Part shown: in pieces, positions 1 to 14,730 of the stretch
Layout of the letters: the number at the start of each line of letters is the position of its first letter
Numbering within the stretch: position 1 is the first letter of the stretch
IMG/VR virus record: IMGVR_UViG_3300048577_000041
Span: 1 to 37,267 of that record
From: a virus
Taxonomy: Duplodnaviria > Caudoviricetes
Direction: 5' to 3' (one strand)
Length of the DNA: 37,267 bases
Made by a program: the position numbers and the translations under genes
The notes under the pieces: generated by a model
What the model was told of the DNA's origin: nothing
Database searches by the model: none
What the model saw: only the letters and a program-made list of their open reading frames with translations

Positions 1-329
1 TCGGGGACCGTGTCTGGGCCGGTGTCGGGGACGGTGTCCGGGCCGGTGTCTGGGCCGGTGTCGGGGACGGTGTCGGGGACGGTGTCGGGGACGGTGTCCG
101 GGACGGTGTCCGGGCCGGTGCCTGGGCCGGTGTCGGGGACGGTGTCCGGGACGGTGTCTGGGACGGTGTCGGGGCCGGTGTCTGGGCCGGTGCCTGGGCC
201 GGTGTCGGGGACGGTGTCCGGGACGGTGTCTGGGACGGTGTCGGGGCCGGTGTCGGGGACGGTGTCCGGGACGGTGTCTGGGACGGTGTCGGGGCCGGTG
301 TCTGGGCCGGTGTCGGGGACGGTGCCCGG
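1..329 (+). repeat. 12-bp tandem coding repeat GGTGTC(T/C/G)GGG(A/C)C, about 27 units
   Basis: Directly visible. It encodes G-V-[G/R/W]-[D/A] units. Confidence 0.95.
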
Positions 330-1070
330 GAGATCCTTGCCCAGTATCCCGAGCAGATGCATGGGCCGATCCTGGCCGGCCTTCGTCGCGCCGCTCGCGA
401 GGTGTGGAGTTCGTTCCGGGGCGGCAATCTCTGGGCTGGCGACTACGCGTGGATTCAGTGGTTCCGGACTGTCGGTCACCTCGAGCTGGCCGGCGATCTG
501 TGGGACCGGCACGACGCAGATGTGAGGCTCGCGGCGGCCGGCCCGCAGTTCTGGTACCGGGCCGGCGATCGGTGCGTGGTGGCCGTCTCGGATCGTCCGG
601 TGCAGATCAGCCGCGACCCGCTGGGCCGCAGCCACAGCGACACTGGCCCGGCCGCCTCGTGGGCGGACGGCTGGCGATTCAACACCTGGCACGGCACCAC
701 CGTGCCGCCCGACTTCTACGGCTGGGACGTGGCTCGCGCACTGGCCGAGAAGAACTCCGAGGTGCGCCGGTGCGCGATCGAGCGGCTCGGCTGGGACACC
801 GTCACCGACCGGATGCGGCTCGTCGCGACCGCGGACGATCCGGGCAATCCGAGCCAGGTCCTGGCCCTGTACGACCTGGACACGCTGGCCGGCCTGTACG
901 ACGCGGACGCCCGGATCTTGCTCGTCTCCAACGCGTCGCTCGACAAGGGCGGCCACCGGCGCCGGTTCGGCCTGCCGGTCCCCGGTCACCACACAGACCC
1001 GGTCGCCGCGGCCGCCGAACTCTTCAACGTGCCTGCTCACACCTACCGGCAGCTCGCCCGAGCTTGCTGA
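3..1070 (+). CDS. DUF6745-like phage protein with N-terminal tetrapeptide repeats (5' partial)
   Basis: Frame 3 is open from the window start into the 357..1070 ORF. It reads [16 protein letters not shown]...[16 protein letters not shown]. The C-terminal [23 protein letters not shown]...WHG...[16 protein letters not shown] resembles DUF6745. Confidence 0.75.
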
Positions 1071-1526: not shown

Positions 1527-1570
1527 GGGGTCGGCCCGCCGCTACCGGAGGGGCAGTGCGGGCCGACCCC
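1527..1570 (+). terminator. GC-rich stem-loop, possible terminator or processing site
   Basis: Perfect 13-bp inverted repeat GGGGTCGGCCCGC / GCGGGCCGACCCC in an intergenic gap, with only a weak pyrimidine tail. Confidence 0.5.
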
Positions 1571-1607
1571 CGCTTCTCACATTCGCTCTTTGGAGGAGGT
1601 GTGCGTC

Positions 1608-2987: not shown

Positions 2988-3283
2988 GCGAGCCCCTGAC
3001 CCGCGAGCAGATCATCGAGCAGGCAGCACGGGCGCTAGAGGATGCCCGGGCAGACGCGGACATCGACGGCTACGGAGACGAGGGACAAGGCTACGACTTC
3101 ACGGTCTACGCCTCCGCAGCCCTGCCTATCATCACCCGCGCCATCACCGACCGAGTGCGGACGCTGCACTGGCAGGACGGCTCGACGTGCGGGCTGTGTA
3201 GCGGAATGCGTGGTGTGCCCTACCCCTGCCCGACCGTCTGCGAGTTGGACGCCATCGACGCCGAGATGGGAGTCGGCCGGTGA
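2984..3283 (+). CDS. hypothetical phage protein (LH...CxxC...YPCPT motif)
   Basis: AGGAGG RBS and ATG at 2984. The YPCPT motif is common in actinophage small proteins. Confidence 0.7.
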   Translation: MSEPLTREQIIEQAARALEDARADADIDGYGDEGQGYDFTVYASAALPIITRAITDRVRTLHWQDGSTCGLCSGMRGVPYPCPTVCELDAIDAEMGVGR

Positions 3284-4026
3284 AGCCCTACTACTCCGAC
3301 GACCTGGTGACCCTCTACCACGGGTCGGCGCTGGGCCTCACCGAGTTCCCCCAGGCCGACCTGATCCTGACCGACCCGCCGTACGGTGAGACCAGCCTCG
3401 AATGGGACCGGTGGCCCCAGGACTGGCCGCGCTGCATGGTCGGTCTCGCCCCCGCGATGTGGGTGTTCGGGTCGATGCGGATGTTCCTTGAGCACGCCGA
3501 CGAGTTCAGCGAGTGGCGGCTGTCGCAGGACGTTGTGTGGGAGAAGCACAACGGGTCTAGTTTCCATGCTGACCGGTTCAAGCGGGTCCACGAGCACGTC
3601 CTGCACTGGTATCGGGGCGAGTGGGCCGCCATCTACCACCGGACTCCGACGACTCCGGACGCGACCCCTCGGACGGTGCGCCGGAAGGCGCGGCCGAAGC
3701 ACACCGGACACATCGACGCTTCGAGCTACCAGAGCTTCGACGGCGGCCCTCGGCTCATGCGGTCGGTGCTGTATCAGCCGTCAATGCATAGTGCGGCGGT
3801 CAATGAGACCGAGAAGCCGGTGCCGCTGCTCGAGGTGCTGATCGGCTACGGCTGCCCGCCCGGCGGGACCGTGCTGGACCCATTCGCGGGGTCCGGTTCG
3901 ACAGGTGTGGCTGCGAAGCGCACCGGACACAGGGCGATCCTCTACGAGGTCCGCGAGGAGCAGTGCGAGCAGGCCGCCCGTCGCTTGGCCCAGGACGTCC
4001 TCAACTTCGGCGGAGGTGTCGCATGA
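3280..4026 (+). CDS. DNA N6-adenine/N4-cytosine methyltransferase (beta class)
   Basis: Catalytic TDPPY near the N-terminus, TEKP motif, and SAM-binding VLDPFAGSGST near the C-terminus. Confidence 0.92.
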   Translation: MKPYYSDDLVTLYHGSALGLTEFPQADLILTDPPYGETSLEWDRWPQDWPRCMVGLAPAMWVFGSMRMFLEHADEFSEWRLSQDVVWEKHNGSSFHADRFKRVHEHVLHWYRGEWAAIYHRTPTTPDATPRTVRRKARPKHTGHIDASSYQSFDGGPRLMRSVLYQPSMHSAAVNETEKPVPLLEVLIGYGCPPGGTVLDPFAGSGSTGVAAKRTGHRAILYEVREEQCEQAARRLAQDVLNFGGGVA

Positions 4027-5018: not shown

Positions 5019-5456
5019 ATGAACATCCAGCCCATCGGTCTCGACGTCGCGAACTGGTTCGTCAACTCGTGGCACCGTCACGCGAGGGGCGTGGTCGGTC
5101 ACCTGTTCAGCCTCGGCCTGTTCGACGCCGACCTGACCCTGCATGGCTGTGCGATCGTCGGTCGCCCAGTCGCTCGCCACCTCGACGACGGCTACACGGT
5201 CGAAGTCACCCGGCTGGCCACCGACGGCACCCGCAACGCCTGCTCGCAGCTGTATGGGGCGGCCTGTAGGGAGGCTCGGAGGCGCGGCTACCGCTGGGTG
5301 GTCACCTACACCCGCGACGACGAGACCGGGGCGTCCGTCAAGGCAGCGGGCTTCCGCTGGGGCGGCGTGGTGCGCGGACGCCAGTGGGATACCCCAGGCC
5401 GCCGTCGCCCGCTGCGGAATGTGGTCGACCGTGTCCGCTGGGAGCGTGCCGCATGA
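5019..5456 (+). CDS. XF1762-family / Mom-like GNAT-fold protein
   Basis: HRH...G..FSLG...G.AIVGRPVAR.LDDG.T.EVTRLATDGT.NACS.LYGA...GY..VVTYT...E.GAS.KAAGF is the characteristic family pattern. Confidence 0.8.
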   Translation: MNIQPIGLDVANWFVNSWHRHARGVVGHLFSLGLFDADLTLHGCAIVGRPVARHLDDGYTVEVTRLATDGTRNACSQLYGAACREARRRGYRWVVTYTRDDETGASVKAAGFRWGGVVRGRQWDTPGRRRPLRNVVDRVRWERAA

Positions 5457-8820: not shown

Positions 8821-9408
8821 GTGTACATCACCCGCATCGTGCTGACCTCGAAGGGACAGCGCCAAGCCCGGGATATCCGGGCAATCCACCAGACCGTCGG
8901 GTACTTGACCGACGCGTCCACCGGCCGTGTCCTGTGGTGCCTACCGCGGCGTGACCTGCTCATCGTGCAGGCCGACCATCCGTGCGACGTGCGGCTCACG
9001 CCCGGTCTGGCGGTGTCGTCGGCGCATGCCGAGGTGTGCACCGACTGGGCGGCCGGGCAGCGGGTCCTCGTGTCCTTGATCGCCGTCCCGGAGGTGGCGG
9101 TCAGCAGGCCGGGCCGGCAGCGCAGCGTCCGTCGCCCGCTGACCGTCGATGACTGGCCGGGCTGGCTGGAACGCAGGCTCGCCGGCGCTCTCACACTGGA
9201 CGACATCCAGGTGGAGCCGATGGGGGCGCGGATCGGACGCAAGGCCGGGACGCGGATCATCGTCGACTGGGTCGGGTATGCCGCAGCCGGGACCGTCATG
9301 GACCCCGCAACCCTCGCAGCGCTCCAGCGTGACGGGGTCGGTCCGCACAAGGCATACGGTGCTGGGCTCCTGCTGGTCACCACCGACAGCAAAGCGCGGG
9401 CGGCATGA
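8821..9408 (+). CDS. cas6e: Cas6e/CasE-like CRISPR RNA-processing RAMP
   Basis: MYITRIVL start, early His (IHQTV), RVLW...LLIVQ, WLERR, and the C-terminal G-loop GVGPHKAYGAGLL typical of type I-E Cas6. Confidence 0.82.
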   Translation: MYITRIVLTSKGQRQARDIRAIHQTVGYLTDASTGRVLWCLPRRDLLIVQADHPCDVRLTPGLAVSSAHAEVCTDWAAGQRVLVSLIAVPEVAVSRPGRQRSVRRPLTVDDWPGWLERRLAGALTLDDIQVEPMGARIGRKAGTRIIVDWVGYAAAGTVMDPATLAALQRDGVGPHKAYGAGLLLVTTDSKARAA

Positions 9409-10109
9409 CCGCCCCCACCAGCCTCGTCTGGGACCTCGCCGGGAGGCCGGGGCCAGCCAAGCCGCTGGAAGACGTGCCAGGCTGGTGCGCCATCTCTGGC
9501 GAGTGGTGCGAGCGGACCGCCGACGTGACCAAGTCGCTCGGTTCGAACTTCACCGACCGCCGCTGCTTTGCTCGCGACGACTCGACGAGGGTAGGGCCGG
9601 GGGCGCTGTGGGCTTTGACCGGACGCGGCCTCCAGACCCTGCGCATGTGGACGATCATCGCCGGCGCCGACTCCGGCCCGTCCCACGAGAAGGCGTGGCT
9701 CGGAAGCCGTCCCGGTCTGACTCTGCTGAACCGGGCGAACCCGATGCCGGTCCACCGGCTGCTGTCCGACCCGCCCGAGACGGAATGGCTGCTGTCGGTG
9801 GCCGTCTCCGGCCAGAAGCACGTCCTGCCCTACGCCCAGGTCAACAGCGGGCGCTCATGGACGGTGCGGATGGAGACCACCGACATCACCGCCACCTCCG
9901 ACCAGTGGGCCCACGTCCACACCCACACCCTCGCGCTGCGCAGACTCGGCGTCCCTGCCGACGCCATCCCGCAGCGGGAGCCGCGCTACATCAAGACCAG
10001 CGAAGCGCTCGCTCAGTGGCGCGAGCACGACCTGGCTCTCACCGGCTGGCACACCAGCCCGCTACTCGACCTCGCACTGTGGACCATCACGAAGGAGACC
10101 ATGCAATGA
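9405..10109 (+). CDS. csf1: type IV Csf1 (Cas8-like large subunit)
   Basis: Position in the operon. Motifs C...G, SNFTD, LL.DPP...W...VA.SGQKHVLPYA.VN and LRRLGV resemble IV-B Csf1. Confidence 0.72.
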   Translation: MTAPTSLVWDLAGRPGPAKPLEDVPGWCAISGEWCERTADVTKSLGSNFTDRRCFARDDSTRVGPGALWALTGRGLQTLRMWTIIAGADSGPSHEKAWLGSRPGLTLLNRANPMPVHRLLSDPPETEWLLSVAVSGQKHVLPYAQVNSGRSWTVRMETTDITATSDQWAHVHTHTLALRRLGVPADAIPQREPRYIKTSEALAQWREHDLALTGWHTSPLLDLALWTITKETMQ

Positions 10110-11935: not shown

Positions 11936-12144
11936 GCATCGAGCAGGCGATCTGGGATTGGCTGCCCGCCCGCGCAGACCGGCGCCGCACCACCGTCCCC
12001 CCGGTGATCGCAGCGAACCTCGGCCTCGAACCGCGCGCCGTGGCCGAGGCGCTGCACCGCATGGAAGCGGGCGGGCACGCCTTCCAGTCCCGCCGCGGCT
12101 CGTGGCACCGCGGCATCCCACTCCCCAAGGAGGACACATGCTGA
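11932..12144 (+). CDS. small winged-helix DNA-binding protein
   Basis: GTGA overlap. IAANLGLEPRAVAEALHRMEAGG..FQSRRGSW fits a wHTH pattern. Confidence 0.6.
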   Translation: MSIEQAIWDWLPARADRRRTTVPPVIAANLGLEPRAVAEALHRMEAGGHAFQSRRGSWHRGIPLPKEDTC

Positions 12145-12881
12145 TCGACTCGCCCCGGCTCACCCCGGCCGACCGGCAGGCGTGGGCGGCACTCGAACGC
12201 TACGACACCGCCCTCGCCGCCCTGCCGTCCTGGCCAGCCAAAGAGCAGCACGCCCAGCAGGTCATCCGCGACTTCGCCGCCGGCGGACCTTGCTACGCCT
12301 CCACCTCGTGGGGCAAGGACTCCACCTGTATGGCCCACCTGGTCGCCACCAGCGGAGTGGTGCTGCCGGTGGTGTATGTGCGGATGCGGCGCTGGGAGAA
12401 CCCCGACTGCCTCACCGTCCGGGACCAGTTCCTCGACCGCTACGGCGACCAGGTCGACTACCACGAATACTGGGTCGACGGTGGTCCCCGCTGGTGGGAC
12501 GGCCCCGACCAGACGACCCTGAAGTCAGGCTCGCACGTCGGAAGCCAGTTCGCCGAGGCCGAGCGCCATCACGGCACCCGACACATCTCCGGCGTCCGAG
12601 GCGACGAGTCCCGGATGCGGCAGATGGCGATGGGGCGGTGGGGCGAAGCAGGCCCGTCAGCGTGCCGCCCGATCGGCCGCTGGAGAGCTACCGACGTGTA
12701 CGCCTACCTGCACCGCCACGACCTGCCCGTCCATTCCGCCTACGCCATGAGTTTCGGTGGCCACCTCGACCGGCAATGGCTCCGCGTCTCACCCATCGGC
12801 GGCATCACCCAGGCCCACAAGCAGCGCGCGGACTGGGAAGCGGCCTACTACCCAGACATCGTCCGACAGGAGCAGCCGTGA
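12138..12881 (+). CDS. cysH: CysH/PAPS-reductase-family protein of type IV-B locus
   Basis: AAGGAGG RBS. PP-loop STSWGKDS, ISGVRGDES..R and PIGRW...DVYAYL..HDLP. Location matches IV-B loci. Confidence 0.85.
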   Translation: MLIDSPRLTPADRQAWAALERYDTALAALPSWPAKEQHAQQVIRDFAAGGPCYASTSWGKDSTCMAHLVATSGVVLPVVYVRMRRWENPDCLTVRDQFLDRYGDQVDYHEYWVDGGPRWWDGPDQTTLKSGSHVGSQFAEAERHHGTRHISGVRGDESRMRQMAMGRWGEAGPSACRPIGRWRATDVYAYLHRHDLPVHSAYAMSFGGHLDRQWLRVSPIGGITQAHKQRADWEAAYYPDIVRQEQP

Positions 12882-13891: not shown

Positions 13892-13930
13892 CTTGTCCGG
13901 AACCTACAACAGATCGGCGGCGCCATGCCG

Positions 13931-13936
13931 TACACT
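13931..13936 (+). promoter_or_regulatory. possible -10 element (TACACT) of a late/ncRNA promoter
   Basis: TANNNT hexamer just downstream of the putative late regulator. No clear -35. Confidence 0.3.
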
Positions 13937-14124
13937 GACGGTGATGGTTGGTGGTTCTCCCCAACTGTGACAATCGGCACATGTGGCATGCCCAGAGTCC
14001 ACCCGTTGAGGCCAGTGGCTTCCGCCATTGAGCCCCGAATCAGCGGCCACCCCAAAAGTTCGGATACCCGTGAGGTCGTGGGCGCGGGAGAGCCTGACGG
14101 CAGCTCCGTCGAGATGATCGGGTA

Positions 14125-14153
14125 GCGGCTTTCGCGCTAGCGCGGGTGAGCCG
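14125..14153 (+). CRISPR. solitary or degenerate type I-E-like CRISPR repeat
   Basis: 29-nt GCGGCTTTCGCGCTAGCGCGGGTGAGCCG has a central palindrome and a 3' GTGAGCCG handle, like actinobacterial I-E repeats. A partial second copy GCGCGGGAGAGCCT lies at 14082-14095. Confidence 0.45.
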
Positions 14154-14172
14154 TCCGGGACTTGCGACCAAA

Positions 14173-14255
14173 GGTAGGCGTCCGGCAGGTCGAGGACATC
14201 GCCCCGAAAGCGACTGGCGGGCAACCGCTCCAGAGTTCGAGTCTCTGGCCTACCG
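14173..14255 (+). tRNA. tRNA-Ser(CGA)-like, atypical
   Basis: Acceptor GGTAGGC/GCCTACC plus G73. Anticodon arm TCGC-CCCGAAA-GCGA. Long variable arm GCGG-GCAA-CCGC. T arm CAGAG-TTCGAGT-CTCTG. It has C33 instead of U33 and no encoded CCA. Confidence 0.75.
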
Positions 14256-14299
14256 CATGAACACCCGACCCTCTCCCGCCCACCGCGCCGGCCCCAGGC

Positions 14300-14372
14300 T
14301 TGACGACATCTCATCGGGTAGAGCGGCTGCCTAGTAAGCAGCGGGTGCGGGGTTCGAGTCCTCGTCGGTCCT
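14300..14372 (+). tRNA. tRNA-Thr(AGT)-like, degenerate acceptor stem (possible pseudo-tRNA)
   Basis: D arm CTC-ATCGGGTA-GAG. Anticodon arm GCTGC-CTAGTAA-GCAGC. T arm CGGGG-TTCGAGT-CCTCG. The acceptor stem is only partly paired. Confidence 0.6.
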
Positions 14373-14478
14373 CCCCGTCCTCGCCGCTGCAGCTACCGCA
14401 CCACACACCACTCAGGGCCAACGGCCGGCCCACCATTGAGGACGGGCGGGATCGCCGGCGGCGAGGACAGGCAAAAGC

Positions 14479-14730
14479 TCAGCGGCGGCGGAACACCGGG
14501 TACGCCTGAGGATTCCCCTTCTGGTCGGTCGATCCGGCCCACTGGATCAACACCCACCCCTCACGCTCCACGGCCTCGATCATCGCCGACCAGTCCGGGA
14601 TCTCACCCGACAGGCCCATCGTGAACGTCGGCGTGTTCAGCAGCGCAGCGAAGATGTACTGGTCACCAGCGTGCGCGGCGCGAGCCTGAGCAGCCAGCTT
14701 GTCAGCCTTGGCGTTACGGACCATTCCCAT
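14479..14730 (-). CDS. hypothetical protein (reverse-strand moron-like gene)
   Basis: 83-aa ORF MGMVRNAKADKLAAQA...WSAMIEAVEREGWVL.QW...AYPVFRRR with protein-like composition. Confidence 0.6.
   Translation of the reverse strand: MGMVRNAKADKLAAQARAAHAGDQYIFAALLNTPTFTMGLSGEIPDWSAMIEAVEREGWVLIQWAGSTDQKGNPQAYPVFRRR

What the first reader, a model, noticed from the sequence alone, without database searches (positions are those of the whole stretch)
8821..9408. A type I-E-style Cas6 heads a type IV-B operon
Seen: a Cas6e G-loop (GVGPHKAYGAGLL), an MYITRI N-terminus and a candidate catalytic His, coupled to csf1 by an ATGA overlap. Established: IV-B is generally described as lacking cas6, while Cas6e-like genes accompany some IV-A loci. 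Inference: this variant processes its own guide RNAs, either I-E-like hairpins from the phage or the host's I-E pre-crRNA. It may therefore define a distinct IV-B subvariant and point to the elusive IV-B RNA.
Basis: partly seen in the sequence, partly recalled or inferred. Interest (0 to 1): 0.88.

Follow-up and report, generated by a model that had tools for sequence, protein, structure and literature searches.

The report
Prophage Cas6e hijacks host CRISPR guides
A phage carries an array-less type IV-B CRISPR operon led by its own Cas6e-type enzyme, and its relatives sit in bacteria whose type I-E CRISPR arrays perfectly match the resident phage, so the operon likely captures the host's guide RNAs as a counter-defence, a testable role for a subtype whose function is unknown.

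Summary
Confirmed: 8821-9408 encodes a Cas6e (Pfam 67 bits, E. coli CasE fold, His23 and G-loop kept) overlapping csf1 of a csf1-cas11-csf2-csf3-HTH-cysH operon in a 37-kb actinophage contig. It marks a clade: 41 of 56 non-redundant Csf2 loci carry it, all on one side of a 98% branch (4 lack it, 11 truncated). No array or repeat unit beyond chance was found; 13940-14400 holds tRNA-like genes. Instead, 13 of 14 lysogen hosts have type I-E Cas6e plus array (backgrounds 16-41%), and 10 of 13 carry perfect spacers against their own prophage, mostly AA-PAM, 8 with intact interference genes; 1 of 8 controls did. A model docks Cas6e on the Csf2 thumb (0.76 vs 0.00). Best reading (0.55): the enzyme loads host I-E crRNA into a nuclease-less filament, blunting Cascade. 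Nothing is shown biochemically and the window's own host is unknown. Cas6 in IV-B was noted before (12 rare cases, 2020), but not this clade. This scan reported the same module earlier on another genome (e1-5867787, e1-5867796); I re-tested its claims. New variant of a known kind.

The parts
8821..9408 (+). cas6e, I-E-type crRNA endoribonuclease; His23, Lys141, G-loop 172-184
9405..10109 (+). csf1 (type IV Cas8-like), ATGA overlap with cas6e
   Evidence: PADLOC Csf1_0_IV 90.8 bits
10106..10477 (+). type IV cas11 small subunit
   Evidence: PADLOC typeIV_Cas11 139 bits
10455..11342 (+). csf2 (Cas7 backbone); thumb tip predicted to dock Cas6e
   Evidence: 313.7 bits
11339..11935 (+). csf3 (Cas5-like)
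   Evidence: 98.8 bits
11932..12144 (+). small winged-HTH-like gene in the slot where many relatives carry a DNA methyltransferase
   Evidence: weak HTH_29
12138..12881 (+). cysH-like PP-loop protein (SWGKDS motif conserved)
   Evidence: PF01507 40.7 bits
8337..8801 (+). ssb, last replication gene before the operon (context)
   Evidence: PF00436
14125..14152 (+). best I-E-repeat-like 28-mer of the window; 8 mismatches, chance level, not accepted as guide
14173..14255 (+). tRNA-Ser-like sequence (by my inspection; not called by ARAGORN default)
   Evidence: sequence; weak T-arm hit
14296..14375 (+). degenerate tRNA-Thr-like gene
   Evidence: Rfam tRNA 24.3 bits, below gathering 29

Best explanation
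The phage encodes a Cas6e at the head of an array-less type IV-B operon, and this enzyme likely cuts the host's type I-E pre-crRNA, is predicted to dock on the Csf2 thumb, and would load host guides into a nuclease-less Csf filament, which would starve host Cascade and protect the phage. Shown: gene identity, operon, clade, host I-E co-occurrence, perfect self-targeting spacers. Predicted: Cas6e-Csf2 contact. Inferred: cleavage, crRNA loading, loss of immunity. CysH would act on the captured RNP or its target; its role is not resolved.
For: Active-site pattern equals that of host I-E Cas6e: His at T. thermophilus H26 in 39 of 40 phage and 27 of 27 host proteins, R/K at R158 in 37 of 40, G-loop glycines 40 of 40. 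Cas6e is inherited with Csf2 (Mantel rho 0.57, permutation max 0.35) and is not a copy of each host's enzyme. No own array or repeat unit. Hosts: 13 of 14 have I-E Cas6e and array against 83 of 201 Corynebacterium, 47 of 301 Actinomycetes, 65 of 301 Propionibacteriaceae. 10 of 13 hosts hold perfect spacers to the resident prophage region, 82 in all, 62 with AA-N PAM; in G001 all 30 non-array matches in the genome lie in the prophage. Interference genes are whole in 8 of these 10. Controls 1 of 8. Only the cas module is shared by all 11 elements compared. Cas6e-Csf2 model 0.76, best control 0.00; mark reached by 116 of 157 solved and 2 of 215 mismatched pairs; runs agree in at least 72% of contacts, partner pLDDT at least 83.
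Against: No biochemistry or expression data. The window's host is unknown; 0 of 824 spacers match it at up to 4 mismatches. Control G027 tolerates 3 perfect spacers to an element without this module, so ordinary Acrs can do it. G007 lacks cas3/cas8e/cse2 in the stretch fetched. Spacers keep being added at the leader end (12 of the first 21 in G537), which suggests Cascade is not fully starved. The operon lies in the replication module with no promoter found, so expression in the lysogen is open. JS623 IV-B did not enrich co-expressed I-E crRNA, though it lacks a cognate Cas6. A sponge does not need CysH. The complex pass may reflect likeness to solved Cas7-Cas6 contacts.
Confidence: 0.55

Rival explanations
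1. Guide theft for use, not removal: the Csf complex loaded with host crRNA binds matching DNA or RNA (its own genome or competing elements) and recruits CysH and a methyltransferase to mark, shield or silence it.
For: All targeting subunits and cysH are kept in every full locus; a DNA methyltransferase of either of two families sits next to cysH in 25 of 36 assessable loci, 18 between csf3 and cysH; ongoing leader-end acquisition.
Against: 11 of 36 loci, the window among them, have no adjacent methyltransferase; methyltransferases are common in this phage region and I ran no control on phages without csf; no targeting data.
Confidence: 0.22
2. Cas6e processes a phage-encoded RNA not recognisable as a CRISPR repeat.
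For: Phage Cas6e has diverged from host enzymes (median 29% identity within the clade); hairpin-plus-handle motifs 42 observed vs 24 expected; one candidate at 14125-14152.
Against: Motif hits are scattered on both strands with no shared position; shared unmasked DNA among loci proved to be mostly methyltransferase genes; best repeat matches are at chance level in 13 of 13 sequences; it does not explain the I-E host bias.
Confidence: 0.11
3. The host bias and self-targeting reflect phage ecology and unrelated small anti-CRISPRs; Cas6e is only a structural cap of a filament built on non-specific RNA.
For: G027 shows tolerance without the module; JS623 complex binds random RNA; small divergent Acrs would escape the shared-gene test.
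Against: The catalytic His is kept in 39 of 40 while a related solo Cas6e family lost it; ecology alone does not predict near-absence from I-E-free hosts (0 of 4 Csf2-positive Corynebacterium lack I-E).
Confidence: 0.12

Closest known systems
Type IV-B of Mycobacterium sp. JS623 (PMC7937560)
   Same: csf1-cas11-csf2-csf3 with cysH, no array, no helicase or nuclease
   Different: JS623 has no cognate Cas6 and bound random RNA; this clade is prophage-borne, has an operonic Cas6e and is about 30% identical in Csf2 to the plasmid IV-B group
Rare cas6 near IV-B loci, Pinilla-Redondo 2020 Data S1 (PMC7038947)
   Same: Cas6 gene associated with IV-B
   Different: Called 12 exceptions; the 10 visible rows are other records and mixed proteins. 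Two loci of this clade appear in that paper's IV-B tree but not in the Cas6 list. It reported negative co-occurrence of IV-B with other CRISPR systems; this clade shows the opposite for I-E
Type IV-A3 (Cas6e recruited from I-E)
   Same: Cas6e in a type IV operon, tied to I-E hosts
   Different: IV-A3 has DinG and its own array; here Cas11 and CysH, no array; IV-A3 Cas6 model scores only 18.3 bits
Cas-derived anti-CRISPRs AcrIB3, AcrIB4, AcrVIA2 (10.1101/2023.06.24.545427)
   Same: Phage cas homologues proposed or shown to block host CRISPR
   Different: Single decoy proteins; here a whole five-subunit effector with a processing nuclease; no csf mention in that text
Fuxivirus IV-B with mini-array (PMC10541130)
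   Same: Virus-borne IV-B with cysH
   Different: Archaeal, has a mini-array, no cas6 mention

Membership tests
Cas6e (CasE/Cse3) | Tandem RRM fold matching CasE/Cse3 | tested here: met
   (TM 0.8)
Cas6e (CasE/Cse3) | G-rich loop and catalytic His (T. thermophilus H26; role of the residue recalled) | tested here: met
   H23, G172-G182; Y23 and R27 equivalents absent, as in host I-E enzymes
Cas6e (CasE/Cse3) | NCBIfam equivalog TIGR01907 cut-off | tested here: not met
   18 bits vs 45.2; a divergent branch, Pfam cut-off is met
Cas6e (CasE/Cse3) | Cleaves a repeat hairpin | not testable with these tools
   needs in vitro assay
Type IV-B | csf1, cas11, csf2, csf3 | tested here: met
Type IV-B | cysH-like neighbour with PP motif | tested here: met
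Type IV-B | No CRISPR array | tested here: met
   contig may be incomplete
Type IV-B | No Cas6 (usual description, rare exceptions allowed) | tested here: not met
   Cas6e present; hence a variant
Type IV-A / IV-A3 | DinG helicase and own array, no Cas11 | tested here: not met
   none among the proteins scanned around the operon; Cas11 present
Anti-CRISPR | Blocks interference when expressed | not testable with these tools
   indirect only: self-targeting

The most novel reading that the evidence does not exclude
A phage-borne class 1 effector that has no memory of its own: it processes the host's I-E guides with its own Cas6e and uses them, including guides against itself, to steer CysH and an interchangeable DNA methyltransferase to matching DNA, i.e. 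natural RNA-guided DNA modification running on stolen guides.
Probability: 0.15. Interest if true: 0.95.

Novelty: new variant of a known kind. Interest (0 to 1): 0.78.

Why it matters
The RNA and function of type IV-B are a standing open question; the one solved complex bound random RNA. This clade names a nuclease, a candidate RNA (host I-E crRNA), a phenotype (tolerated self-targeting) and a docking site, so the old 'crRNA sponge' and 'crRNA scavenger' hypotheses become directly testable. If right, it is a multi-subunit anti-CRISPR made from a whole Cas effector.

Tried and rejected
Cas6 single-sequence locus search found nothing; alignment search was needed. Arrays or mini-arrays: none in the window, in 10 loci or in the visible part of the 41-locus scan (output cut, so not all loci were seen). 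Long tandem repeats (window 1-330, L001, L004) have periods that are multiples of 3 and the window's lies in an open frame; taken as coding, unrelated. Rfam gathering scan: 0 hits. 13895-14480 folds no better than shuffles (z -0.6). Relaxed ARAGORN was noise. Sequencing runs: no RNA holder listed; the one run laid was uninformative. Cultured phages: only Skermania phage SPI1 has a distant Csf2 (30%), its upstream gene was not tested. No IV-A3 Cas6e sequence was obtained for the tree, so that comparison rests on HMM scores. The careful Csf2 tree did not finish; the quick one is cited. The Cas6 FastTree does not show the phage enzymes as one clade: 4 changes, one origin not excluded. The junction count counts overlap with any next gene and is not used. 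G537 coordinates were wrong and redone. Paper search for catalytic residues gave nothing relevant, so residue roles are recalled.

Full report
Observation. The window is one 37,267-base virus record with replication, packaging and tail genes of a high-GC tailed phage. It matches PF08798 at 67.4 bits and PADLOC Cas6e at 70.6, but falls below the TIGR01907 cut-off. A profile of 23 relatives finds only CasE/Cse3 chains in the PDB (8 sequences), and the model (pLDDT 95.2) superposes on E. coli CasE and T. thermophilus Cse3 at TM about 0.8; the type IV Cas6 6NJY scores 0.38. The genes behind it are Csf1, type IV Cas11, Csf2, Csf3, an HTH-like gene and a CysH-like gene: subtype IV-B.

A clade, not an accident. 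Searching viral contigs with Csf2, not Cas6, gave 21 loci, and 21 of 21 had a cas6 hit upstream of csf1. With genome and metagenome scans I reduced Csf2 sequences of 200 aa or more to 56 clusters at 95%: 41 with cas6e (window included), 4 without despite enough upstream DNA, 11 truncated. All 41 lie on one side of a 98% SH-aLRT branch of a quick tree, the 4 on the other. In 37 of 41 cas6e abuts csf1; in 4 a 0.3-0.5 kb stretch intervenes. All 12 named genomes with the cas6e form are Actinomycetota. The seeds came from this clade, so 41 of 56 is not a frequency for IV-B: in the 50% library only about 15 of 890 clusters at E 1e-10 score above 300 bits, and plasmid IV-B Csf2 are about 30% identical (34 records). 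Cas6e and Csf2 identities correlate (rho 0.57, 40 loci). Host I-E Cas6e form their own 99% clade apart from the phage enzymes, which group loosely with variant I-E and solo Cas6e proteins. His23 (T. thermophilus H26) is kept in 39 of 40, R/K at R158 in 37 of 40; that these are catalytic is recalled, not read.

No guide of its own was found. No array in the window or relatives. The best match to each host's repeat in 12 prophage regions and the window had 8-10 mismatches against 6-11 in shuffles. The region holds two tRNA-like genes (one by my inspection) and folds like its shuffles.

The hosts supply the guide. Of 12 genomes, 10 have a canonical second Cas6e of 190 bits or more, G010 a divergent one with a variant Cas3 and array, and G012, a fragmented MAG, none. 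Two lysogens found later, G178 and G537, also have I-E: 13 of 14. Backgrounds are 83 of 201 Corynebacterium, 47 of 301 Actinomycetes, 65 of 301 Propionibacteriaceae; binomial 0.005 for 6 of 6 Corynebacterium and 1e-4 for 7 of 8 others, with genus rates for the others unmeasured. Perfect spacer matches to the own prophage region: G001 19 of 97, G003 3 of 42, G004 2 of 49, G005 3 of 28, G006 16 of 74, G007 2 of 82, G008 7 of 89, G009 1 of 28, G178 16 of 106, G537 13 of 163; none in G010 (0 of 33, two with up to 2 mismatches), G011 (0 of 8), G002 (0 of 25, only 10.8 kb of prophage). Arrays were only those in fetched stretches, and regions include some flanking DNA. 62 of 82 have an AA-N PAM; G178 prefers GA-N. 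Cross-host matches are nearly nil. In G001 all 30 non-array hits genome-wide fall in the 43-kb prophage. Cas3, Cas8e, Cse2, Cas7, Cas5, Cas6 are whole in 8 of the 10; G006 has an assembly gap in cas3, G007 lacks three genes in the stretch. Eight I-E-positive, Csf2-negative Corynebacterium controls: 1 self-targets (Fisher p 0.0075), and its target has no csf genes. The controls are imperfect: not known lysogens, 4 capped. Nobrega 2020 (PMC7708048, passages) gives 19% of CRISPR genomes, mean 2.5 spacers; conditional on a prophage about 45% by my arithmetic, p about 0.02 by hand. The self-targeting lead came from an earlier scan note; the numbers are mine. None of 824 spacers matches the window itself, so its host is unknown and the argument rests on relatives.

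Assembly. The Cas6e-Csf2 model scored 0.76 against a best control of 0.00; the mark was reached by 116 of 157 solved and 2 of 215 mismatched pairs; runs agree in at least 72% of contacts, partner pLDDT at least 83. The contact is Csf2 residues 173-190 (numbered from window 10479), the thumb tip. Zhou 2021 saw a flexible 20-residue thumb insertion unresolved in JS623 Csf2. From recall, the Cas7 thumb docks on Cas6e in I-E Cascade, so the pass may show likeness only.

Neighbours. A Dam-like (PF02086) or N6/N4 (PF01555) methyltransferase lies between csf3 and cysH in 18 and right after cysH in 7 of 36 assessable loci. The window has an HTH there and carries an N6/N4 methyltransferase and a Mom-like gene 3-6 kb upstream. 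Among 10 self-targeted prophages and the window, only the cas module is common to all, partly by selection.

Mechanism. Most likely (0.55): Cas6e cuts host pre-crRNA, stays on the 3' hairpin, caps a Csf2 filament and withholds guides from Cascade. Rivals: guided use with CysH and methyltransferase (0.22), structural cap plus unrelated Acrs (0.12), hidden phage RNA (0.11). Against the best reading: continued leader-end acquisition, unknown expression in the lysogen, unexplained CysH, and JS623 IV-B not enriching I-E crRNA.

Prior art. Pinilla-Redondo 2020 (PMC7038947; passages, supplement parts 1 and 12, one supplement search) states IV-B lacks Cas6 except 12 instances, and raises both scavenging and sponge ideas. 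The 10 visible rows do not hold these loci, although the Frankia contig found here and a C. phocae locus are in its IV-B tree. Taylor 2021 (PMC8175902; passages, section 7) describes IV-B as lacking a processing enzyme and lists the same hypotheses. Makarova 2025 (PMC12669027, passages) names no such variant in the passages seen. Shmakov 2018 (10.1101/270033, passages) lists SSB and N6-MTase in the legend of a figure covering I-E and IV-B loci, so a locus of this clade may be drawn there; figure and supplements not seen. Also passages only: PMC10541130, PMC7937560, PMC10910872, 10.1101/2023.06.24.545427. Searches 'type IV-B + cas6 + cysH', 'type IV-B + CRISPR' from 2022, 'csf2/prophage/cas6e/cysH', 'type IV-B + cas6e' and two anti-CRISPR searches listed no paper on this clade; the library lacks most subscription journals.

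Verdict. Observation confirmed; interpretation partly supported; new variant of IV-B; interest 0.78.

Noticed in passing
L243-L248 (G314, G441, G483, G249, G348): Cas6e-like genes with the catalytic His replaced by Gly and a degenerate G-loop, no csf genes or array nearby; they group near the phage Cas6e in the tree. Possibly a solo RNA-binding family.
   Followed up: partly
L249:4073-13973 (G351): A distant IV-B operon directly after a reduced I-E locus (cas7, cas5, cas6e, cas1, cas2, array).
   Followed up: partly
window 3280-4026 and 5019-5456: N6/N4 DNA methyltransferase and Mom-like DNA modification gene.
   Followed up: no
L009:20-130: tRNA-like sequence with a long extra hairpin in the anticodon arm, upstream of cas6e (by inspection).
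   Followed up: no
G027:C1:2106863-2169611: 63-kb element hit by 16 host spacers (3 perfect) with no csf module: a place to look for a type I-E anti-CRISPR.
   Followed up: partly
L068:729-1784: Cas6e frame runs on into a Cys-rich C-terminal extension.
   Followed up: no
window 1-330: 12-nt tandem repeat of about 27 copies in an open frame at the contig start.
   Followed up: partly
window 1527-1572 (approximate): Long GC-rich intergenic inverted repeat.
   Followed up: no
L254:3304-7437 (Skermania phage SPI1): A cultured phage with an unannotated distant Csf2 in a gene run of IV-B-like sizes.
   Followed up: no
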